This document shows, piece by piece, positions 2,845-61,245 of a stretch of 64,000 nt of DNA (positions are counted from its first letter, which is position 1; each line of letters begins with the position of its first letter). Both the position numbers and the translations under genes were made by a program. Below the pieces are notes generated by a model. It had not been told where the DNA came from. It was given only the letters and a program-made list of their open reading frames with translations, and did not search any database. The DNA comes from an uncultured virus (IMG/VR IMGVR_UViG_2576861727_000003) (Duplodnaviria; Heunggongvirae; Uroviricota; Caudoviricetes): the IMG/VR virus record IMGVR_UViG_2576861727_000003. The stretch is one strand, 5' to 3'.

Positions 2845-3556
2845 TACAATCCCTCCTTGCATATTCTCCGAAATATTTTTCTTCGTTAGCTTTTCTTACC
2901 GCATATGCTTCTTCAAATGTGTCAAATTGCCCTAGATATAAATTTTTGTTATTATGCCAAATTTGTGCTTTCCATTTTTTACCATTGCGAGTTTTTACTA
3001 CGCCACAAACTCCACTCGTACTTGTGGTAGGAGCTTTATGGTTTTTAGCATTGCAATCTGGTGTACATATTCTCAGATTGCTTCGGAGATTATTAGTTTT
3101 ATCTCCGTCTATATGGTCTATCACATAATTATCAGGTGGAGTCATTAAATATCTATGAAGGTAAATTAGATTGATTTTACCGTCTATTACCTTAGAGGAT
3201 ATAATATATCCATTAGTTGATACTCTCCAATAATAACTTTTTATCTTATCGAGGTCACATAAATTTATCTTAAAAGTCTTGTCACCATCTTCTGTTTTAA
3301 CAATAACAATGTCGTTTTCTATTTCGTATGAGTTTTGTTTTCTCATATCTTTGCGACGTTTTAAAGCAAAACATCCGCAACTAAGAGTGCGCTTGCAAGT
3401 CAAATTATTGCTAAGTACCTCAACCTGATTTCCACAATCGCACCGACACAGCCATTTTATCCTCTCTCTTTTATTTGAAGATACATCTTTTTTAACACGT
3501 TCTAAAACAGTAAGTCTGCCAAATTTTTGTCCTGTTAAATCCTTAAAAGTACCAAT
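2828..3556 (-). CDS. HNH-AP2 homing endonuclease with N-terminal DLTGQKFGRLTV repeat
   Basis: DHIDGDKTNNLRSNLR (HNH), WKAQI..YLGQFDTFEEA (AP2); frame is open to 3559 and the likely start is ATT after GGAGATGA. Confidence 0.85.
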   Translation of the reverse strand: MGTFKDLTGQKFGRLTVLERVKKDVSSNKRERIKWLCRCDCGNQVEVLSNNLTCKRTLSCGCFALKRRKDMRKQNSYEIENDIVIVKTEDGDKTFKINLCDLDKIKSYYWRVSTNGYIISSKVIDGKINLIYLHRYLMTPPDNYVIDHIDGDKTNNLRSNLRICTPDCNAKNHKAPTTSTSGVCGVVKTRNGKKWKAQIWHNNKNLYLGQFDTFEEAYAVRKANEEKYFGEYARRDCNEPNI

Positions 3557-41355: not shown

Positions 41356-42366
41356 TTACAGACCAAACATTGCGTCTATCTCTTCATCATCGTGATTCAT
41401 AAGATAACTTGCTGTTGTAGAAACGTCGGAATGATGCATAAACTTCATAATTTGGTCAAGAGAATAAACTCTTGGCTTACCATTCTCGTCAAGCAGTCTT
41501 GTATCTGTACCTTGTTTCAAACACTCTGCACGAGAGTGACGCATGGTATGCGGGAAAATATTACACTCTTCGCCGCGAACTTCCGACAGCACCTTGGATA
41601 TTGAGCATACTCTGTCATACAGAGCCTCCTTTGTTATTGGTGACTTCTTGTCTCCTACTCTCTTTACCCATAGTGAAGGAATATCGTCATCTCCGCGTTC
41701 ATCGAGATACTGCGCAATCAGTTCCTTAGTATCATCAAGATACACAAGTGGGAACTTCTTACCGCGCTTTCCAATTACCACATTGGTCTTATTAGTCTCT
41801 GTTAATCCGTTTTTCTCAATCTGAAACAGTTCATTCTTACGCCCCGCCGAATCAAAGCCAATAGAAAGCAAAACAGCGTCTTGCAATCTACCACGCTCAA
41901 TCAGCAGTTTTCTCGTCTTGATGAACTCGTCAAAAGTAAAGAAGAAATCGTCGTCGTTATCTTTGACGCGCTCACGGGGAAGTCCTCTTACTTTCTTTGC
42001 TACATTGTTGTCATAATCGTATTCATCATCATCCTCTACGAAACTCAGCATGGAGTTGACTGCGCTCTTAATACGGTTGACTCTGTTTGCTGACATTCCG
42101 CAATCTTCCGACAGCCAGATACTCAGGTTTCTAAAATCCTTTTTTCTAAGTTCGAGAATGCTCTTGTTGTCAAGTTGCTTGAGGATATAAATAAAGACTA
42201 TTCTCATATCCTGAAAATAGCCATCGATAGTTCCTTTGGATTTCTTACGCTGACGATACTCAGCCATGAAGTCTTCAAGAATCATCTTATTTTCTTTGTT
42301 TACTTGTTCCCATAGTTCGGGAGTGTAGATGCGGTTGTATACACGTCCGCGTTTCATATTATTCAC
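41356..42366 (-). CDS. Tyrosine recombinase
   Basis: SAGRKNEL (R), PHTMRH (HxxR), HSDVSTTASY (H, Y). Confidence 0.85.
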   Translation of the reverse strand: MNNMKRGRVYNRIYTPELWEQVNKENKMILEDFMAEYRQRKKSKGTIDGYFQDMRIVFIYILKQLDNKSILELRKKDFRNLSIWLSEDCGMSANRVNRIKSAVNSMLSFVEDDDEYDYDNNVAKKVRGLPRERVKDNDDDFFFTFDEFIKTRKLLIERGRLQDAVLLSIGFDSAGRKNELFQIEKNGLTETNKTNVVIGKRGKKFPLVYLDDTKELIAQYLDERGDDDIPSLWVKRVGDKKSPITKEALYDRVCSISKVLSEVRGEECNIFPHTMRHSRAECLKQGTDTRLLDENGKPRVYSLDQIMKFMHHSDVSTTASYLMNHDDEEIDAMFGL

Positions 42367-44835: not shown

Positions 44836-45181
44836 AAATTAGGGGCGTTCACCACGCACAGTGAGCCGCCCTTATAAACCCTCTGATGTGCGTATCTTCG
44901 GATTTGATACCATTAAAAGACCTATCGTGGTACGCATCGTTGAGAGGCGTGATAGGTTCATATTTTCTGCGCTTTTACACTTAGGATAAGGTACGCTAAC
45001 CGACCGCGCCTATTTTAACTTTTAGCTCTCAGCATAGGGAAAGGTGCTACAAGGTAAGTTGACGCTAAAGCACCGACCATTTAAGACATTCTAAAATCAG
45101 ACCCAATACAGGTACTCGGTCTTGAAAACTCATGTCTAATAGTTTTGTTCTGCATTTTTATATTGCTCGTAAAGAGCTGTG

Positions 45182-47127: not shown

Positions 47128-49851
47128 TCATGATGTGCTCAATTTTTTCGCTATATACCTAATATGTTGGAGTTCGGCTTTACGTTTTCTTGCACATACG
47201 TCACAGCGAACCTTTCTGTTAGCTTTACCTTTAGTGGATATCTCTTTGCCACAATCTATGCAGAACGAGCGCTTCTTCTTGGTTGCTTGTCTGCAAGCCG
47301 TACAACAATACGTCTGGTCTTTACGGGTCTTAATAAACCTCTGACCACAAGTCGGACAAATGGCACTATTCTCGTCGATGTTGTGCCTTAGATTCTGATA
47401 TACAACGTCGCCATATATTGTCCAGAATGCTCGTTTCTTACTGTTAGACTTTTCTGAGAATAAGTAAACAACAAGAGCGTCAACAATCTCCTGCTCGGTA
47501 TAGGGGAGTACAAGCATTTCTTCTCGAACCGCATCAAAAACAGCATGATAGTTTGATAAACCCTCTGTGCCAGTCTGATTAAAGTTAAGGGAGCTAGTAA
47601 GTTTGACGAATTTTTCCGTAACGTCTTTGTTCAACGTTGCGTGACTATTATGTAAAAGCATCTTGTAATTAAATATTCCTTTTATGTTCAGCTTGAAATT
47701 GAGCCTATAACGCTTTGGCGGGAACAGCTTATATATGCGGTTAACCGTAGAATCGTTAAGTGGTTCAATCTGTTTATCGTCTTTGTCCTTAGCGTACTTA
47801 AAGAACGCAGGAACTTTGGATTTTGTGTGGCGAGTGATTATGTCATGTACCCAATCGGGCTCTTCTGGCTTGTATAAGGTCTTTGCGTAATCAATTGTAA
47901 AATTATTCTGCATGCATAACCATTTAACTACGTTCATTTTTTCTTTATTAATTTCTCCGCCATTCCATATTTTTGTAATAGCATTACTTATTTCTCCTAT
48001 ATTGCCCCCTGTGTACGCCGCAATCAGTCCGTCATAAATATGCTCGGGTGTTACTTCAACAGAGCCAGCCTTTGCCATATAGTAATAAAGCGGAACTACA
48101 TCTTTAGTCACGCGCTTCGCTGCATTAGTAAGGACTTTGTTATTAACAATAAGTAGCTTGTCTCCGTCGCAATCGTACTGTAAAATTTTGGAAAGTAGAC
48201 TATCAACACTTACATAAATTGCGTCGGTATTAAACCATTCGGTAGTCACATCATTTATGGTATTGTCTTTAACAAAATGCTCGATAGAGAGATGAGGAGA
48301 TCTCAGACAATCAAGTTCAACGCCTTCAGGATAAAGCCTACAGCTTATCTCGTCTCTGCCAAGTATACCTTTTGGGTTCTCAATCCCCATAAACAAGTTT
48401 TCACATACCGCATAAAAATCAGGCAATACAAACGTATATTTACAATCCAGCTTAAACTTACCCGACCAAAGCTCACCCTCTAAACTCTTCTTTATATCTC
48501 TCAGAGTCGCCTTTGTATATGGGTCAGCCAATAGTTCAGGATAAACGTTAAGACATTTTTGAAATCCTGATTTATACTTTCTCTCGTCATCCGCGCCAAA
48601 TACTTTCAGCATCGTATTCGGGTCGCTACACATTTTAATTATTTCCTCGTCGTTTTTCTGCGCAAGAGCAATTATCTCAGCATCAGTCATATCGTAAAGT
48701 GTCTGTATCATCTGATAATTTATCTTAGCGTCTGGAATATAATCTTCTTCCATATTACATCTACCCGCAGAACAACCATATTTCTTGAAACGGTCTTTAT
48801 AATCCTGCCAACTATCGTACATCTTCCAAAGTTTAAATTGTGATTTCGTCAAAATGATACGAATGTCCTCAGCGATAATATCATGCTTATCGCCATAGAT
48901 ATCAGTGACAATGGGAGAGCAATCGTGTTTCTCAATAAATTTAATGAAGTCAAATGTACCAAGTAATCCTTTAACAAAAGGAAGTCTTACCATGAAGTTC
49001 TTTTTGCTAACAGATGGTAGCATCATGCCGCATCCATCGGTTTGTGCTATTGGCACATCCATTTGCTGACGTGTAATTGAGAAATCTTTATCGCTCATGA
49101 AGTCTACGAATCCATTGACATTATTTTCAAAGTCTTCAACAACAACACAACGGTCTATATCAAACTCTTCCCATAAGTCAGTAGCGCTGTTGCTCAGAGC
49201 GGTATAGGCTAGAAACTTATTAATATTTATTCCGCCTTTAGCGTTAATCTCTTCTATTGTCATACCCGCAGTTAATGTATTCCAATGTTCTTTAAGTAAA
49301 TCCTCTCGTACCGCAACAAACTTCTTTGTTCTTATCTGTCCTGCGCTTGCCGAGAAGAATACATACTTCTTGCCGTTCATCATAAATCCGTTATGTAAAA
49401 TACTCTTAACTACGTCGAAGAAATAAACCTGTACGATAACGATTTCCTCATTAAGTTGTCTTTCTTTCAGCCCGAAGCACCGAGTTAGATTCGAATCGAA
49501 TATTGAAACCTGACGGCGAATTGTCAATGTACTTGGTCTAACCTCTCGGGTTAGCGGTATATTCTTCGCAAGCAAATCTTTAAGCTGTGTCTTGTGGTCG
49601 GCAACATACCGCCGAAGTATGTCGCGACGACGCTTATGGTTAAGTGTGTATTTACAACTGTGTTTGCGTGACTTGCGGGCTATATTCTTATGTAAGAAAC
49701 CCGAGGCTATTTTCTGCTTGCTTGTCCACTCGTCAAGCGTTTTAAGCAAATACTTTGCGCGGATAATCCTGTTCTCTATCGCTTTTTCTTCGTCTGTGTA
49801 GAAACAGGATGTATCGAGTCCGTAAACGTAATGAAGTTTTGATAATGCCAT
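47128..49851 (-). CDS. yonO: YonO-like single-subunit (two-barrel, RdRP-like) RNA polymerase with C-terminal Zn fingers
   Basis: SAGQIR, TDGCGM, RLPFVKG, RSPHL and catalytic DCDGD motifs; lies upstream of the late operon as in SPbeta. Confidence 0.85.
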   Translation of the reverse strand: MALSKLHYVYGLDTSCFYTDEEKAIENRIIRAKYLLKTLDEWTSKQKIASGFLHKNIARKSRKHSCKYTLNHKRRRDILRRYVADHKTQLKDLLAKNIPLTREVRPSTLTIRRQVSIFDSNLTRCFGLKERQLNEEIVIVQVYFFDVVKSILHNGFMMNGKKYVFFSASAGQIRTKKFVAVREDLLKEHWNTLTAGMTIEEINAKGGININKFLAYTALSNSATDLWEEFDIDRCVVVEDFENNVNGFVDFMSDKDFSITRQQMDVPIAQTDGCGMMLPSVSKKNFMVRLPFVKGLLGTFDFIKFIEKHDCSPIVTDIYGDKHDIIAEDIRIILTKSQFKLWKMYDSWQDYKDRFKKYGCSAGRCNMEEDYIPDAKINYQMIQTLYDMTDAEIIALAQKNDEEIIKMCSDPNTMLKVFGADDERKYKSGFQKCLNVYPELLADPYTKATLRDIKKSLEGELWSGKFKLDCKYTFVLPDFYAVCENLFMGIENPKGILGRDEISCRLYPEGVELDCLRSPHLSIEHFVKDNTINDVTTEWFNTDAIYVSVDSLLSKILQYDCDGDKLLIVNNKVLTNAAKRVTKDVVPLYYYMAKAGSVEVTPEHIYDGLIAAYTGGNIGEISNAITKIWNGGEINKEKMNVVKWLCMQNNFTIDYAKTLYKPEEPDWVHDIITRHTKSKVPAFFKYAKDKDDKQIEPLNDSTVNRIYKLFPPKRYRLNFKLNIKGIFNYKMLLHNSHATLNKDVTEKFVKLTSSLNFNQTGTEGLSNYHAVFDAVREEMLVLPYTEQEIVDALVVYLFSEKSNSKKRAFWTIYGDVVYQNLRHNIDENSAICPTCGQRFIKTRKDQTYCCTACRQATKKKRSFCIDCGKEISTKGKANRKVRCDVCARKRKAELQHIRYIAKKLSTS

Positions 49852-49897
49852 GTTTTGTCTCCTTTTCTTTAAGTGCTTGTAAAAGGTTGTATAAAAT

Positions 49898-49969
49898 AAA
49901 AAAAGCACGAGGGTTAGTCGTGCTTAATTTCGGGTATAAAAAATAGCCTATAGCGTAGAACTATAGGCT
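49898..49969 (-). terminator. Two tandem intrinsic terminators immediately upstream of the RNA polymerase gene
   Basis: AGCCTATAG/CTATAGGCT and AAGCACGA/TCGTGCTT stems, each with a minus-strand U-run. Confidence 0.7.
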
Positions 49970-52071: not shown

Positions 52072-52821
52072 TCAGTCTGCGAAAATTGTCTGTATCTCGT
52101 TGTAATACTTATCTTTGTTCTCGCGGGTGATACCGCAGTATCTCAGCGTAGTTCTCGAAGACGAGTGGTTCATCATGTCCTGGATAACCGCGAGAGCCTC
52201 TGTATCATTCGGGTGGAGTTTGAGATTCCAGTATCCGAATGTCTTACGCATCGAATGAGCGCCGATATGCTCTTCAAAGCCGAGTTCTGTGTTTAGCTTG
52301 TGCAGGATGCGGTAGAGCTGGCTTTCGTCCATTTTACCCTTGCGCTCAGAAAGAATGAGATAGTCGTCGAAGTTCACCGTGTTAAGGGTTGCAATGTAGT
52401 CGAGAATCGCTTTCTTAGCGGTGTCGTTAATGCGCGGCTGATTAGTCTTGCGTGTCTTACTTTCGATACACCAGATGTAATCCTTAACAGTTCCGTCTTC
52501 GTTAAGTACATCTCCAATTCTCAGGCTCAGCAAGTCTCCGCCACGAATACCGACGGATATGCCGAGGGTGAACAGCATATAGTTACGAGCCCGATGCCAC
52601 TTAGTTTTACCTTTGGTGCGGTAGAATTCCTGTGCCATCTGTATGTGTTCAAGTGTACGTATAGGCTCGTCTTCCTGTGCCTTCTTGATTCCGCGAGCAT
52701 TAACCGTCGAGGTAGAGCGGCGAGCGCGCTGTACTGTAATGTCAATTGTCTCGTGCGATTCGATAGCATTGTTTCCAATGGTCTCGGTACGGGTGATTTC
52801 GATAATGTTTGCTTTTGTCAT
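52072..52821 (-). CDS. Tyrosine recombinase (catalytic domain only)
   Basis: GIRGGDLL, HSMRKTFG, HSSSRTTLRY. Confidence 0.88.
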   Translation of the reverse strand: MTKANIIEITRTETIGNNAIESHETIDITVQRARRSTSTVNARGIKKAQEDEPIRTLEHIQMAQEFYRTKGKTKWHRARNYMLFTLGISVGIRGGDLLSLRIGDVLNEDGTVKDYIWCIESKTRKTNQPRINDTAKKAILDYIATLNTVNFDDYLILSERKGKMDESQLYRILHKLNTELGFEEHIGAHSMRKTFGYWNLKLHPNDTEALAVIQDMMNHSSSRTTLRYCGITRENKDKYYNEIQTIFAD

Positions 52822-52922
52822 ATTTTCGTCCTCCTTTAGTCCTTTGGTCATACTGTACCATACCTTGCGGAAAATTATTGAGGGCTTTTTTTGTTTGACC
52901 GCCCTCCGTTTTCTGTATATAT

Positions 52923-52951
52923 AGTATAGCATAAAAGCGGCGGCAAGTCAA
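52923..52951 (-). promoter_or_regulatory. Sigma-A promoter, leftward
   Basis: TTGACT-17-TATACT with extended TG. Confidence 0.7.
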
Positions 52952-55829: not shown

Positions 55830-56096
55830 ATGAAAATTAACGAATTAATAAGCCTGTTTTATCAGGCTACTGGCTTCACCATAAAGAGAACTCACGGCGG
55901 TTATAAATTCGAGGTTACAACCGATCTTGTTACCGCACCTATATCTCTCGCAGATATAAAGCGTCGGGTTAAGGCATATTGCGAGCTTAAAGCTTCTATT
56001 TACGAAGCAAAAGCCGCGTATTGCGAAGACACAGACGGAGCTACATGGTTCTCCGACTGTGCCGATAACTGGCGCAGAACTCTGGAAAGAGTCTAG
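55830..56096 (+). CDS. Early hypothetical protein
   Basis: AAGGAG RBS before MKINEL. Confidence 0.6.
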   Translation: MKINELISLFYQATGFTIKRTHGGYKFEVTTDLVTAPISLADIKRRVKAYCELKASIYEAKAAYCEDTDGATWFSDCADNWRRTLERV

Positions 56097-56230
56097 TTTT
56101 ACAGGCAAATTATCAGAATACACATTTCCCGTGAATTTCCGCCCAGAATTTTCTCGGGATTTTTCTTCGGAGATTTATCTGGGATTTTTATACCCGAATT
56201 TCTTGGGTAAATATATTTGGAGGTATAATA

Positions 56231-56815
56231 ATGAAAACAATGAAAGTATTGTATGGCGGTGAGTTTGTTGAATTTGTCAGCGATTGTTTCAGTGATTACG
56301 CTGCCGAAACAGGAAAACTCGGCAATCTCTTCATGAAAGACGGCGTGATGCTGTTTGATGGCGAAAAGTCAGTGATTTTTAGCGGGCATTTTATCGACTT
56401 TAGCCACATGAAACATTACAATGGAGATATATGCTTCTCCATTGAAAGCACAAAAAATCCTGCAAACGCAAGATTATCAGGTGCAAAGATCATATATTCC
56501 GCTTTGGAATTAGAGGAGGCATATTTTGACCGCTACCGTACAATAGTTTCAATGCTCTGTGACGGCGCAAAAGAGGACTCTGAGGAATCTGATTACGTCG
56601 GAGTGTGTCTGATTAAAATTGGAAACATTTCCGACGAAGAGTTAGAAGCGATTATATCGGTAATGGCAGAAAATAATTGCCGCTATTGGTGCGGCGAACC
56701 TAGAATTGACCTAAAGCGAGAATATGAGCTTTGGGTGGAGTTTGTTCCAAACGAAGAGAGCGGAATATTTAAATGGGGATTATACCCCTCGAACTACATA
56801 ATAAGGAGAGGATAA
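56231..56815 (+). CDS. Early hypothetical protein (acidic)
   Basis: GGAGGT RBS. Confidence 0.65.
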   Translation: MKTMKVLYGGEFVEFVSDCFSDYAAETGKLGNLFMKDGVMLFDGEKSVIFSGHFIDFSHMKHYNGDICFSIESTKNPANARLSGAKIIYSALELEEAYFDRYRTIVSMLCDGAKEDSEESDYVGVCLIKIGNISDEELEAIISVMAENNCRYWCGEPRIDLKREYELWVEFVPNEESGIFKWGLYPSNYIIRRG

Positions 56816-56817
56816 TT

Positions 56818-57051
56818 ATGAAAACTATAAGGGATTTTATGTGGTTTGTATTTCCCACAAATAACGATGTCTTTGTCATCAAAGATATAAAGACTGGCGA
56901 CAAGGTCTCTTTTACAAGAGATTCCACTAAATCGCCTGACTGGGGCAAATTCGTAGAAAAATACTACGATATGCCAATAAGCTATGTCGAGTTTGAGCAA
57001 GGTGACAATAAGACAATAGTAAATCTTATTGTCGGTATGGATAGATTTTAA
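56818..57051 (+). CDS. Early hypothetical protein
   Basis: GAGG RBS before MKTIRD. Confidence 0.6.
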   Translation: MKTIRDFMWFVFPTNNDVFVIKDIKTGDKVSFTRDSTKSPDWGKFVEKYYDMPISYVEFEQGDNKTIVNLIVGMDRF

Positions 57052-57093
57052 CTCTATAATATAACCCTCCTGCCCCGATTTTTCGGGGCTTAT

Positions 57094-57144
57094 GAACACA
57101 TGAGTTGACCTCCCCGTGGTGTGTTCGGGTAACGCTAACAACTC
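57094..57144 (+). ncRNA. Minimal HDV-like (theta-type) ribozyme 1
   Basis: P1 GAACAC/GTGTTC, P2 GAGTTG/CAACTC, P3 ACC/GGT, L3 TCCCCGT, GG for P1.1, J4/2 GCTAA. Confidence 0.8.
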
Positions 57145-57150
57145 CCTAAC

Positions 57151-57204
57151 GAACCGTAGAAGTCAGCCTCCTCGTGGCGCGGTTTGGGTAATGCTAATGA
57201 CTTC
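57151..57204 (+). ncRNA. Minimal HDV-like (theta-type) ribozyme 2
   Basis: P1 GAACCGT/GCGGTTT (G1-U wobble), P2 GAAGTCA/TGACTTC, P3 GCC/GGC, L3 TCCTCGT, GG, J4/2 GCTAA. Confidence 0.83.
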
Positions 57205-57546
57205 ATTCACACACCATCCCGACTTTGTGTGAAAAACTGCTGACAAAATTTATGCTAAAGGAGATGATAATTTTCATGATTTAACCAGCGTGAACGCGAC
57301 AGCGCAGAATAAAGTGCCGCGGGAATTTTACCGACATATTCAGCCGAATCAGCTCAGAATTTTGTTAGGTAATTTTTCTTGAAATGATTGAGCGGGGTAG
57401 CATCCGCAAGAAAGGGGTGATGATAGATATGTTTGATATATTGGTTCGCCGCAGAACCGTCGTGTGTCGGAAATATTCGATACATGAGAAATAAGTCAGC
57501 GATAGCGGCTGACGTACTTGTGCATTGCGGTTTATGCGCAAGACAA

Positions 57547-57621
57547 GCTCCCGTGGCGAAATTGGCAAACGCAGTGTATTTAAGGTACATACAACTATGG
57601 GTTCGAATCCCATCGGGAGTA
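57547..57621 (+). tRNA. tRNA-Leu(TAA) lacking the long variable arm
   Basis: GCTCCCG/CGGGAGT plus A73; GTGTA-TTTAAGG-TACAT; ATGGG-TTCGAAT-CCCAT. Confidence 0.78.
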
Positions 57622-57684
57622 TCCTCTTCTATGACATTATACCTCCTTAATTATGGCGGCGTGGAAATTTCTGCGCCGTCTTTT

Positions 57685-57796
57685 GTGCCATTAGCTCAAT
57701 CGGTTAGAGCGCGTATTGTGTCTTGTAGAAGACACTTACAGCAGATTTATTTGCTATTCCAAAGCCGAGATGTGGGTTCGAGCCCCACATGGCGCA
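57685..57796 (+). ncRNA. tRNA-like RNA with an expanded anticodon region
   Basis: Intact acceptor GTGCCAT/ATGGCGC, D arm GCTC/GAGC, T arm GTGGG-TTCGAGC-CCCAC; about 60 nt lie between D and T arms. Confidence 0.7.
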
Positions 57797-57900
57797 TTTT
57801 ACGGCACGAACAGCATTTCACATTTGCATAAAGTGTGCCGTGTTAACCGCCCATTTTGGGTAAATTTTATAAGGCAAAACGCCTAGGAAGGAATTTTAAA

Positions 57901-58062
57901 ATGAAAAGTTTCAGATTTGTAGACAGGAAAACAAGCAAGGTTTGGGTAGAAACCGCACCAGACTTCAAGACCGCTAGAGCAAAGATTTATAAGGCTCTCA
58001 AAATCAAACCCAATGTGTTCACCGTTAAAGCGCCGATGAATACATGGGTCATAGAAAGGTAG
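57901..58062 (+). CDS. Small early protein
   Basis: AAGGA RBS before MKSFRF. Confidence 0.5.
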   Translation: MKSFRFVDRKTSKVWVETAPDFKTARAKIYKALKIKPNVFTVKAPMNTWVIER

Positions 58063-58185
58063 GCGAGAAAAAATGCTGAAAGTTTTATTCCAGAAATTTT
58101 TCGGCAAAAAGCAGAGCATAGCTGCGGAGCTCAAGTATTACCAGAGCCTCGCGGCGTATAACAAATTTTAAAAGGAGGAATTATA

Positions 58186-58566
58186 ATGGAAGAGTTAAAA
58201 AAAGATAAACTTGAAGAATTAAGAGAAGCATTAGAACTTAACGAACACATGGCAAATTCACTCAGCGAGGAAGTAAAAAGATACACGGAAAAAGCCGCCG
58301 AAATAAGAAAAGAGATTATGGTGGAGAGTGTAGACAGAGCCAGATTTTTCTACCATACGAGCTTCGGTAATGACGGTCTTGAATCCATAGGTAAAGTAGT
58401 AAGTTTTCTATCGTTTTGTGAGTCATTAGGCTTAAAATGGAAGAGTGGATGTAACCCGCTCAACGAACACGCGATTGACACAGTTGACGACGCTCTTCAT
58501 GACCGCTACACAGTGTGGCGCATTAACATATCCGACGAGGGTAAGTTAACACTGGAGGTGATATAA
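58186..58566 (+). CDS. Early hypothetical protein
   Basis: AAGGAGG RBS; GLKWKSG motif. Confidence 0.65.
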   Translation: MEELKKDKLEELREALELNEHMANSLSEEVKRYTEKAAEIRKEIMVESVDRARFFYHTSFGNDGLESIGKVVSFLSFCESLGLKWKSGCNPLNEHAIDTVDDALHDRYTVWRINISDEGKLTLEVI

Positions 58567-60870: not shown

Positions 60871-61245
60871 ATGAATTTTTCAGATAAACTAATTCGATTG
60901 CGTAAAGCATTCGGATACACAAAGAAGTATGTAGCTGAAAGTGTCGGCGTATCATGTACCGCTATAGCGGCATATGAGGATGGCAAAACTGCACCTCAGT
61001 ACAAAATAATCTATAAGGGAATCGCGAATCTGTTCGGTGTTCCGTTAGAATTTCTAATGGTAGAAAAACCTCATGATGAGGTAGTTCTGGCGAGTATTAC
61101 AAAACGGCAAACACGACTTCGTATAAATGCGATATCGTGCGATATCGACCGCATTTGTGCAGAAATTCGTGGACTGAGAAAAATAGAGCGTCTTACCGCA
61201 GAGGATGCGCTAAAAATAATCGGGGCGGTGACTGGAAATGAGTAA
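60871..61245 (+). CDS. XRE-family HTH transcriptional regulator
   Basis: LIRLRKAFGYTKKYVAESVGVS..IAAYEDGKTAP. Confidence 0.85.
   Translation: MNFSDKLIRLRKAFGYTKKYVAESVGVSCTAIAAYEDGKTAPQYKIIYKGIANLFGVPLEFLMVEKPHDEVVLASITKRQTRLRINAISCDIDRICAEIRGLRKIERLTAEDALKIIGAVTGNE

What the first reader, a model, noticed from the sequence alone, without database searches (positions are those of the whole stretch)
57094..57204. Two tandem minimal HDV-like (theta-type) ribozymes not attached to a tRNA 3' end
Seen: two 51-54 nt units, 6 nt apart, differ in sequence but both fit the nested double pseudoknot: P1, P2 and P3 pair in each, L3 is TCC(C/T)CGT, GG follows P1, and GCTAA carries the putative catalytic C. 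The stems covary between the copies. Established: minimal HDV-like theta ribozymes of gut phages typically cut at tRNA 3' ends. Here the predicted cuts (before 57094 and 57151) follow an mRNA-end hairpin (GCCCCGATTTTTCGGGGC) and lie about 340 nt upstream of the tRNA cluster. Inference: they separate the early mRNA from the downstream RNA cluster and release ribozyme 1 as a free ~57-nt RNA with 5'-OH and cyclic-phosphate ends, which could be circularised.
Basis: partly seen in the sequence, partly recalled or inferred. Interest (0 to 1): 0.8.

Follow-up and report, generated by a model that had tools for sequence, protein, structure and literature searches.

The report
Tandem self-cutting ribozymes heading phage tRNA operon
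Two small self-cutting RNAs of a known gut-phage type sit back to back just after a hairpin, where they most likely cut an early phage message away from a folded leader RNA and its tRNAs; the ribozyme type is known, and only the back-to-back layout is unusual.

Summary
Two minimal HDV-like (theta-type) ribozyme motifs lie at 57094-57145 and 57151-57204 (+), 5 nt apart. They sit 4 nt after a hairpin (57072-57089) and 342 nt before tRNA-Leu.

- **Specificity:** both fit the published theta segmentation. They are the only two hits in 64 kb, with none in 300 shuffles.
- **Independent model:** a covariance model built from 20 unrelated phage theta ribozymes scores them 34.1 and 48.8 bits. The next best hit in the window scores 13.2.
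- **Conservation:** two metagenome relatives keep hairpin, both units, leader and tRNAs. Seven base pairs show compensatory changes, and the core is nearly unchanged.

Standing apart from a tRNA is not new. The founding paper classes 526 of 1281 occurrences as non-tRNA. Its supplement already lists the relatives' unit 1.

The direct tandem is rare: 0 of 100 sampled theta loci. I found it in no paper.

Most likely the pair is a redundant processing boundary. It gives the upstream mRNA a hairpin-capped 3' end and frees a promoter-less leader/tRNA transcript. Cleavage is untested, and circularisation has no support.

This scan earlier noted theta ribozymes flanking ROOL RNA in rumen phages on other DNA, but no tandem pairs.

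The parts
57072..57089 (+). GC-rich hairpin (7-bp stem). It is followed by an invariant 4-nt tail (57090-57093) and has no U-tract. It would become the 3' end of the upstream mRNA after the unit 1 cut.
   Evidence: Sequence. MFE fold of 57060-57215 and of the 45 nt before the cut (-14.9 kcal/mol). Kept in L027 and L028. The X5 contig's likeness to the window begins at 57073. The terminator scan does not call it.
57094..57145 (+). Theta-type minimal HDV-like ribozyme, unit 1. The predicted cut is 5' of G57094. The putative catalytic C is 57135.
   Evidence: Motif scan. CM R1 gives 34.1 bits, E 7e-7. There are 5 compensatory base pairs and 0 of 16 core changes against L027/L028. The relatives' version is listed as an isolated theta ribozyme in Suppl. 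Data 2 of PMC10879173.
57146..57150 (+). 5-nt linker between the units. It is 6 nt, with a different sequence, in the relatives.
57151..57204 (+). Theta-type minimal HDV-like ribozyme, unit 2. The predicted cut is 5' of G57151. The putative catalytic C is 57194.
   Evidence: Motif scan. CM R1 gives 48.8 bits, E 1e-10. Rfam HDV_ribozyme gives 26.9 bits, below gathering. There are 2 compensatory base pairs against the relatives.
57208..57231 (+). Conserved hairpin 3 nt after unit 2.
   Evidence: RNAalifold columns 4-9 with 22-27. One pair changes on both sides and two change on one side.
57205..57546 (+). Conserved, highly structured non-coding leader between unit 2 and tRNA-Leu. It includes an SD-like AAAGGAG (57257-57263) and a start-stop mini-ORF (57276-57284).
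   Evidence: Alignments A1 and A3. 87 pairs are predicted and 12 have changes on both sides. No Rfam family matches.
57547..57621 (+). tRNA-Leu(UAA), with no encoded CCA.
   Evidence: ARAGORN and Rfam. Conserved in L027 and L028.
57655..57680 (+). Terminator-like hairpin between the two tRNA genes.
   Evidence: Conserved in A1.
57685..57796 (+). tRNA-like gene with a 52-nt insert relative to the tRNA-Lys(UUU) at this place in the relatives.
   Evidence: Rfam tRNA 43.1 bits with a 52-nt insertion. ARAGORN does not call it. The relatives carry tRNA-Lys.

Best explanation
Both units are genuine theta-type (minimal HDV-like) self-cleaving ribozymes of the published 'isolated' (non-tRNA) class. Together with the hairpin before them, they form the 5' boundary of a conserved non-coding module. 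That module runs: two ribozymes, a hairpin, a ~340-nt structured leader, tRNA-Leu, and a second tRNA. It lies in the early region of a temperate phage of a Gram-positive host from ruminant gut.

Proposed mechanism (inferred):
1. The module has no conserved promoter of its own, so it is transcribed by read-through from whatever early genes lie upstream.
2. Unit 1 cuts 4 nt after the hairpin. The upstream mRNA is left with a hairpin-protected 3' end carrying a 2',3'-cyclic phosphate.
3. Unit 2 gives a second, independent chance to sever the transcript. It stays as a compact 5'-OH structure on the leader/tRNA precursor.
4. RNase P would then release the tRNA.

On this reading the tandem is a redundant, context-buffered insulator, and the 57-nt unit 1 RNA is a by-product.

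Shown: the motifs, their specificity, their conservation and covariation, the module boundary, and the rarity of direct tandems. Inferred: cleavage itself, co-transcription with upstream genes, and the purpose of the redundancy.
For: Family fit:
- Exactly two full-motif hits in 64 kb. There are none with decoy bases at the catalytic C and none in 300 shuffles.
- CM R1 was built from 20 theta ribozymes of other phages. It scores the units 48.8 and 34.1 bits, and the next best hit in the window scores 13.2. The sampled family spans 22.5 to 74.4 bits.

Selection on both units:
- Window against L027/L028, unit 1: 12 of 12 differences fall in helices, 5 pairs change on both sides, and 0 of 16 core positions change.
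- Unit 2: 2 pairs change on both sides.
- The linker differs in length (5 against 6 nt), which argues against a shared reading frame.

Module boundary:
- In L027 and L028 the likeness to the window starts at 57072/57067 and runs to about 57700, at 79-80% identity (alignment A1).
- A 31-kb DNA contig of run X5 matches from 57073 on and is unlike before it.
- L028 shares downstream genes, but the adjacent upstream genes are not alike.
- The same pattern, conserved downstream and varying upstream, is described for HDV-like ribozymes that free promoter-less retroelements from co-transcripts (PMC6765202, passages read).

The hairpin as partner:
- In a sample of IMG/VR theta loci, 14 of 25 unique non-tRNA ribozymes have a strong hairpin ending within 6 nt of the cut.
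- Only 212 of 1995 control positions in the same loci do (p 3e-8).
- 18 of 22 loci show hairpin, then 3 nt, then ribozyme.

Other points:
- No conserved promoter lies between unit 2 and the tRNA. The one weak candidate at 57240 is deleted in L027.
- Contigs from an RNA library join unit 2 to the leader on one contig.
- Direct tandems are rare: 0 of 100 sampled loci.
Against: - No cleavage assay or end-mapping exists for these sequences.
- Only two independent relatives with fetched sequence (L027 and L028, nearly alike) carry the covariation.
- In the relatives the two outer P2 pairs of unit 2 are lost.
- The X5 relative has C>T at 57173, in the L3 'CG' that the published motif fixes. So unit 2 may be weakened in some lineages, and the tandem may not be needed everywhere.
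- Redundancy alone does not explain why two very different copies are kept. A single ribozyme would make the same two ends.
- Read-through of the hairpin is assumed. Its tail is not a U-tract, but some termination cannot be excluded.
- The RNA-library contigs may contain DNA, and they come from one study.
Confidence: 0.6

Rival explanations
1. The tandem exists to excise unit 1 as a discrete small RNA (57 nt, 5'-OH and 2',3'-cyclic phosphate). That RNA then acts on its own, either linear or circularised by a host RtcB-type ligase.
For: If both units cut, the fragment 57094-57150 follows by logic. Unit 1 is the more tightly conserved unit: 4 compensatory P2 pairs restore a perfect 7-bp helix in the relatives. 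Seen from unit 2, unit 1 is a compact folded RNA ending 5 nt before the cut. Hairpins and tRNAs end the same way before other theta ribozymes.
Against: No circle, junction or small-RNA evidence exists. Pfam on 55 ORFs, with PHROGs or NCBIfam on some of them, named no RNA ligase or RtcB, only an ATP-dependent DNA ligase. The only sequence conserved in unit 1 is the ribozyme core itself. Its variable helices carry no conserved extra motif that might act in trans.
Confidence: 0.08
2. Only one unit matters. The second is a duplicate or recombination leftover that is slowly decaying, and the tandem layout has no selected role.
For: Unit 2 loses two outer P2 pairs in L027/L028. It carries C>T at 57173 in the X5 relative. 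Tandems are otherwise absent from 100 sampled loci, so they are clearly not required by the family.
Against: The units share little beyond the family core, so this is not a recent duplication. Both are kept, with compensatory changes, across lineages that differ at about 20% of positions. Unit 2 is the better-scoring member of the family.
Confidence: 0.17
3. The hairpin is the real signal, as a terminator or stabiliser. The two motifs are non-catalytic structured RNA, for example protective 5' folds or a protein-binding site, that only resemble ribozymes.
For: Cleavage is untested. Rfam's HDV model is not reached at its gathering score.
Against: The paper reports that all four theta ribozymes it tested cut in vitro (PMC10879173, discussion read). 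The hairpin lacks a U-tract.
Confidence: 0.05

Closest known systems
Isolated (non-tRNA) theta ribozymes of gut Caudoviricetes (Kienbeck et al. 2024, PMC10879173; sections 7, 10, 13 and Suppl. Data 2 read)
   Same: Same segmentation and fixed nucleotides. Same habitat (gut phages) and same placement: non-coding, in sense with neighbouring genes. The relatives' unit 1 is literally entry ribo_nr 9354 of the paper's list, with a variant at 3278.
   Different: Here two different units stand 5 nt apart, and the pair is conserved. The paper's main text has no occurrence of 'tandem', 'hairpin', 'stem-loop' or 'terminator'. It leaves the function of the isolated class open. The window's own two sequences were not found in Suppl. 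Data 2.
tRNA-associated theta ribozymes (same paper)
   Same: Same ribozyme. The cut falls directly after a stable helix. A tRNA cluster is nearby.
   Different: The cut is not within 5 nt of a tRNA 3' end. The nearest tRNA lies 342 nt downstream of the ribozymes, so they cannot make its 3' end. No suppressor tRNA or recoding is seen, and long ORFs are open under code 11.
HDV-like ribozymes at the 5' end of R2, L1Tc and other promoter-less retroelements (review PMC6765202, passages read)
   Same: The ribozyme heads a conserved downstream unit and follows variable upstream sequence. It frees that unit from a co-transcript and stays on its 5' end.
   Different: Those are eukaryotic retrotransposons with full-size ribozymes and reverse transcription. 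Here the host is a DNA phage, the ribozyme is minimal, there are two copies, and the cargo is a leader RNA plus tRNAs.
Clustered hammerhead, twister and other self-cleaving ribozymes in bacteria and phages (review PMC6765202, section 13 read)
   Same: [quoted passage not shown] Proposed roles include processing polycistronic transcripts into pieces of different stability.
   Different: Those are other ribozyme classes. I found no HDV-like direct tandem described.
Synthetic ribozyme insulators such as RiboJ (recalled, not from any call)
   Same: A ribozyme followed by a hairpin removes variable upstream RNA, so the downstream RNA always has the same 5' end.
   Different: RiboJ is engineered, a hammerhead type and a single copy. 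The resemblance is recalled and was not tested here.

Membership tests
Theta ribozymes (minimal HDV-like, Kienbeck 2024) | Nested double pseudoknot: P1 of 6-7 bp starting at G1, P2 of 7 nt, P3 of 3 bp, a 2-bp P1.1, and P4 reduced to a 5-8-nt stretch | tested here: met
   Both units can be segmented exactly as in the paper's Suppl. Data 2. Unit 1's P2 has one mismatch, which listed members also show.
Theta ribozymes (minimal HDV-like, Kienbeck 2024) | Fixed nucleotides: L3 T-CC-NCGY, GG after P1, and J4/2 starting with the catalytic C (C-N-A-A) | tested here: met
   Decoys with A, G or T at the catalytic position give no hit.
Theta ribozymes (minimal HDV-like, Kienbeck 2024) | Profile likeness to independent members | tested here: met
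   CM R1, built from 20 members of other phages, gives 48.8 and 34.1 bits. Background in the window is at most 13.2 bits. Sampled members span 22.5 to 74.4 bits.
Theta ribozymes (minimal HDV-like, Kienbeck 2024) | Site-specific self-scission that is abolished by mutating the catalytic C to U | not testable with these tools
The only RNA data are contigs from one study.
Theta ribozymes (minimal HDV-like, Kienbeck 2024) | Found in gut Caudoviricetes phages | tested here: met
   The window carries terminase, tail, holin, lysin and integrase genes. Holders of the stretch are ruminant-gut metagenomes from 10 studies, though none holds more than 0.42 of the sampled words.
tRNA-associated subgroup of theta ribozymes | Cleavage site within +/-5 nt of a tRNA 3' end | tested here: not met
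   ARAGORN and Rfam call no tRNA upstream of 57094 or 57151. The 45 nt before unit 1 fold into a simple hairpin.
Rfam HDV_ribozyme (RF00094) | Score at or above the family's gathering threshold of 50 bits | tested here: not met
   Unit 2 scores 26.9 bits, with the 30-nt P4 region of the model reduced to 1 nt. Unit 1 does not match this model. The units work like an HDV ribozyme but are not members by Rfam's cut-off.

The most novel reading that the evidence does not exclude
Non-tRNA theta ribozymes may be a general phage device for making RNA 3' ends without stopping transcription. On this reading each cuts directly after a stable helix, whether a hairpin, a tRNA or another ribozyme. A long read-through transcript would then be chopped into hairpin-capped, separately stable pieces. 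The tandem here would be the extreme case: one ribozyme trims the mRNA and the next trims the first ribozyme, releasing it as a defined 57-nt RNA.
Probability: 0.3. Interest if true: 0.6.

Novelty: new member of a known kind. Interest (0 to 1): 0.4.

Why it matters
The founding paper counts 526 non-tRNA theta ribozymes among 1281 occurrences and leaves their function open. This locus offers a clean, conserved test case: hairpin, two ribozymes, structured leader, tRNAs.

Taken with the hairpin enrichment I measured (14 of 25 against 10.6%), it suggests a testable role. The ribozymes would make the 3' ends and insulate transcription units, so that promoter-less RNA modules work in any upstream context.

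The two units are short (52 and 54 nt) and differ in sequence. They could also serve as a natural pair of orthogonal insulators.

The ribozyme class itself is already known, so the gain is in function and arrangement, not in a new catalyst.

Tried and rejected
- **GenBank phages:** blastn of 56000-58500 found no match.
- **Whole genome:** none is held for this window.
- **Relatives through neighbouring proteins:** nothing usable in viral contigs.
- **tRNA-leader pattern (37 nt):** 0 hits in viral contigs and 0 in genome contigs.
- **Strict tandem pattern:**
  - Viral contigs gave only a chance hit, L026.
  - Genome contigs gave 0.
  - Metagenome contigs gave 2 true relatives plus 1 chance hit, L029.
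- **General two-core tandem pattern in viral contigs:** it returned 80 loci and none carries the theta motif. The two loci I read were repeat arrays with the core in every repeat, which I take to be CRISPR arrays. The loci with many evenly spaced matches are probably the same. This scan says nothing about tandem frequency.
- **Unit 2-type pattern:** found only two tRNA-attached ribozymes of unrelated phages.
- **Contiguous strings in the paper's supplements:** found nothing because the file is split by pipes. Redone with single segments. Suppl. Data 1 (tRNA-associated list, old .xls), one oversized csv and the PDFs could not be read. A listing of the window's units there cannot be excluded.
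- **MAFFT alignment of nine units (A2):** P1 was put out of register between 6- and 7-bp forms, so I did not use it for pair counts. Pairs were tabulated by coordinates instead.
- **Pair statistics on A4:** pairing is near 100% by construction, because the rows were picked by a pairing-based scan. This is not evidence.
- **First motif scan:** its 'T' decoy was flawed because it matched a T inside the P4 stretch. This was fixed.
- **Dinucleotide-preserving shuffle script:** Mononucleotide shuffles were used instead.
- **RNA-library contigs of X19 and X20:** they stop at 57162, and X19 has 6 more letters. That is 5-11 nt after the unit 2 cut, and they do not cover unit 1 or the upstream gene. 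They come from one study and are contigs only, so this is not counted as evidence of a cut.
- **Structural paper PMC13635239:** gave nothing on the L3 position changed in X5.
- **Protein-coding reading of the region:** rejected. Differences sit in compensating helix positions, and the linker differs by one base.

Full report
**What is there.** On the + strand, an ORF ends at 57051 and a 7-bp GC-rich hairpin follows at 57072-57089. After a 4-nt tail come two units, at 57094-57145 and 57151-57204.

Each unit can be cut into the same segments that Kienbeck et al. use for theta ribozymes in their Supplementary Data 2. In order these are:
- P1, J1/2, P2 and P3;
- T, CC and NCGY (together L3);
- P3', P1' and GG;
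- a 6-nt stand-in for P4;
- CTAA;
- P2'.

The segmentation of both units is shown. The putative catalytic cytosines are 57135 and 57194. Cleavage 5' of G1 would fall before 57094 and before 57151.

**Is it more than chance?**
- A scan I wrote after the published segmentation finds exactly these two sites in 64 kb and none on the other strand.
- It finds none when the catalytic C is replaced by A, G or T, and none in 300 shuffles of the window. An earlier, looser version gave 0 in 200 shuffles.
- The 11-nt P3/L3 core alone is already enriched: 3 matches against a mean of 0.43.
- Rfam reaches no gathering score here. With loose thresholds unit 2 matches HDV_ribozyme at 26.9 bits (threshold 50), with the model's P4 collapsed to one base. 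Unit 1 matches drz-agam-1 at 15.6 bits.
- I also built a covariance model (R1) from 20 theta ribozymes of other IMG/VR phages, all of one length class. It scores unit 2 at 48.8 bits (E 1e-10) and unit 1 at 34.1 bits (E 7e-7).
- The best other place in the window reaches 13.2 bits. Across 100 sampled theta loci the family spans 22.5 to 74.4 bits.

**Relatives and covariation.**
- A pattern spanning the tail of one unit and the core of the next found three metagenome loci. Two (L027, L028) are true relatives and one (L029) is chance.
- The same pattern found only a chance hit in IMG/VR and nothing in one genome per prokaryote species.
- L027 and L028 keep the hairpin, the 4-nt tail, both units, a hairpin right after unit 2, about 340 nt of leader, tRNA-Leu(UAA), a terminator-like hairpin and a second tRNA.
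- Unit 1, window against relatives: all 12 differences lie in helices. Five base pairs change on both sides (four in P2, one in P3). None of 16 core or junction positions changes.
- Unit 2, window against relatives: two pairs change on both sides (P1 pair 3, P2 pair 5). One P1 wobble becomes a Watson-Crick pair in L028. The two outer P2 pairs are lost.
- The linker is 5 nt here and 6 nt there. Together with the helix-confined changes, this rules out a shared reading frame.
- The two units of one genome share little beyond the family core, so this is not a fresh duplication.

**The module boundary.**
- Nucleotide likeness between the window and L027/L028 begins at 57072/57067 and runs to about 57700, at 79-80% identity.
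- L028 shares downstream genes with the window, for example the HTH regulator at 60871-61245. The genes just upstream of the hairpin are not alike.
- A 31-kb DNA contig of run X5 matches 57073-57900 with 18 differences and is unlike the window before 57073.
- So in three relatives the conserved block starts at the hairpin.
- I see no conserved promoter between unit 2 and tRNA-Leu. The one weak sigma-70-like site, at 57240, is deleted in L027.
- The hairpin is not called a terminator, because no U-tract follows it.

**Context.**
- The window is a tailed temperate phage. It has terminase, tail tape-measure, holin, a GH25+CHAP lysin, two integrase-family genes, an ATP-dependent DNA ligase and a YonO-like single-chain RNA polymerase.
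- The lysin type and strong Shine-Dalgarno sequences point to a Gram-positive host. This is inference.
- The stretch, or close relatives of it, is held by ruminant-gut metagenomes of 10 studies. No run holds more than 0.42 of the sampled words.
- The ribozymes lie in the rightward early region, opposite the integrase.

**What is already known.**
- Kienbeck et al. 2024 (PMC10879173; abstract, sections 7, 10 and 13, and part of Suppl. Data 2 read) define theta ribozymes. They report 742 of 1281 occurrences (58%) at tRNA 3' ends.
- They also report 526 non-tRNA hits. Of these, 493 are in non-coding regions and more than 96% are in sense with the nearest gene. The paper says they 'likely serve unknown biological functions'.
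- Their list of isolated ribozymes contains the relatives' unit 1 exactly (ribo_nr 9354) and a one-base variant (3278).
- The helix strands of the window's own units, and of the relatives' unit 2, were not found there. Files I could not read (Suppl. Data 1 in old .xls, one oversized csv, PDFs) might hold more.
- The paper's main text contains no 'tandem', 'hairpin', 'stem-loop' or 'terminator'.
- Three full-text searches found no report of HDV-like ribozymes in direct tandem in phages.
- A review notes that bacterial self-cleaving ribozymes of other classes often lie near each other and may process polycistronic RNAs. It also notes that HDV-like ribozymes of retroelements sit between conserved downstream and variable upstream sequence (PMC6765202).

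**How unusual are the two features?**
- Direct tandem: I sampled 122 IMG/VR loci with a general theta core pattern.
  - Model R1 was run on the first 100 loci. It found one ribozyme in 98, two in one (L206, 85 nt apart) and none in one (L177).
  - So there are no direct tandems in 100 loci.
- Hairpin before the cut: my motif scan found 96 ribozymes in the 122 loci, 71 of them unique.
  - 37 abut an ARAGORN tRNA.
  - Nine more have a T-arm-like GTTC[AG]A hairpin upstream. I judged this by reading the printed sequences.
  - That leaves 25 non-tRNA ribozymes.
  - Of these, 14 have a hairpin of at least 6 bp and at most -10 kcal/mol ending within 6 nt of the cut.
  - Only 212 of 1995 control positions in the same loci do (p 3e-8). 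A looser criterion gave 15 of 25 against 35% (p 0.009).
  - In the first pattern scan, 18 of 22 loci (one phage group) show hairpin, then 3 nt, then ribozyme, then a gene. The other 4 are tRNA-attached.
- So 'hairpin then theta ribozyme' is a common layout of the isolated class, and unit 1 is a typical case. Unit 2 has no hairpin before it. Its upstream neighbour is unit 1 itself.

**Most likely mechanism.** Confidence is 0.6 for the functional reading and about 0.9 that both are real ribozymes.
1. The module is read through from upstream early genes.
2. Unit 1 cuts 4 nt after the hairpin. The upstream mRNA ends in a hairpin with a cyclic phosphate.
3. Unit 2 gives a second chance to sever the RNA and remains on the 5' end of the leader/tRNA precursor. 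There it is followed at once by a conserved hairpin.
4. RNase P would free tRNA-Leu, leaving a 396-nt RNA (57151-57546).

The design makes the module independent of whatever lies upstream, which fits the variable upstream genes. The steps from 'cuts' onward are inferred.

**Points against, and rivals.**
- A single ribozyme would make the same ends, so redundancy is a weak reason for two conserved copies.
- Unit 2 looks relaxed in some relatives. It has lost P2 pairs, and X5 carries C>T at 57173 in the fixed L3 'CG'. This favours the 'one unit suffices' rival (0.17).
Pfam on 55 ORFs, with PHROGs or NCBIfam on some of them, named no RNA ligase or RtcB, and no junction data exist.
- A non-catalytic reading (0.05) conflicts with the intact and conserved catalytic core.

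**RNA data.** Contigs from two metatranscriptome runs of one study join 57162-57206 to 57288-57417 on one contig, with a diverged stretch between. Unit 2 and the leader therefore lie on one assembled molecule in an RNA library. That library may contain DNA. The place where these contigs stop is not evidence (see Tried and rejected).

**Earlier notes of this scan.** Notes on other DNA describe theta ribozymes heading or bracketing ROOL RNA in rumen phages, and one ending a phage tmRNA. They prompted me to ask whether the RNA behind unit 2 is structured. It is: RNAalifold predicts 87 pairs, and 12 of them change on both sides among only three sequences. It matches no Rfam family. No note covered this genome or this leader.

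**Verdict.** These are real new members of a known ribozyme class, in its already published non-tRNA subgroup. The conserved direct tandem and its place at the head of a structured leader/tRNA module are unusual and apparently undescribed. The function remains inferred.

Noticed in passing
window 57205-57546 (+): About 340 nt of conserved, highly structured non-coding RNA lie between unit 2 and tRNA-Leu. RNAalifold predicts 87 pairs, and 12 change on both sides among three sequences. No Rfam family matches. An apparent 21-codon ORF (57431-57496) overlaps covarying hairpins and is probably not coding.
   Followed up: partly
window 57685-57796 (+): A tRNA-like gene (Rfam tRNA 43.1 bits) carries a 52-nt insert in the anticodon region, compared with the plain tRNA-Lys(UUU) at the same place in L027/L028. 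ARAGORN does not call it. The X1 and X5 DNA contigs also match across this part of the window. It could be an intron, an expanded arm or a decayed tRNA; I could not tell which.
   Followed up: partly
window 57257-57284 (+): An SD-like AAAGGAG is followed by a start-stop mini-ORF (ATG, one codon, TAA). It is kept in L027 and L028, with the sense codon changed and the spacing varying from 8 to 14 nt. It might bind ribosomes as a 5' stabiliser. This is unexplained.
   Followed up: no
IMG/VR loci L110-L231 (sample), L001-L022: Among non-tRNA theta ribozymes, a strong hairpin ends within 6 nt of the cut in 14 of 25 unique cases. Only 10.6% of control positions show this (p 3e-8). None of these hairpins has a U-tract after it. 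The founding paper's main text does not mention it.
   Followed up: partly
window 47128-49908 (-): A 926-aa protein matches the two-barrel RdRP family (PF05183, E 8e-9) and phrog_8308 (E 2e-237). This looks like a YonO-like single-chain phage RNA polymerase. How it treats hairpins and terminators could bear on read-through into the ribozymes.
   Followed up: no
window 44920-44956 (-): An Rfam abiF RNA motif scores 44.1 bits (gathering 37). It lies next to tRNA-Asn and tRNA-Gln on the minus strand.
   Followed up: no
window 57173 and 57192: The X5 relative (31-kb contig, depth 134) has C>T at 57173, in the L3 'CG' that the published motif fixes. All four laid runs have T>C at 57192, which turns GTAATG into GTAACG as in unit 1.
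   Followed up: partly
window 57655-57680 (+): A terminator-like hairpin with a T-run sits between tRNA-Leu and the second tRNA gene, whose first base follows 4 nt later. It is conserved in the relatives.
   Followed up: no
window 41356-42366 (-) and 52072-52932 (-): There are two integrase-family genes in one phage. One lies inside the block next to the terminase.
   Followed up: no
L040, L031 (read); L048, L049, L074-L076, L078, L082, L085, L098, L107 (from the match table): L040 and L031, which I read, are spaced-repeat arrays whose repeat contains the theta P3/L3 core (CCTCCNCGYGG); I take them to be CRISPR arrays. The other listed loci show the same evenly spaced matches and are probably alike. 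Such arrays swamp any search for two cores at ribozyme spacing.
   Followed up: yes
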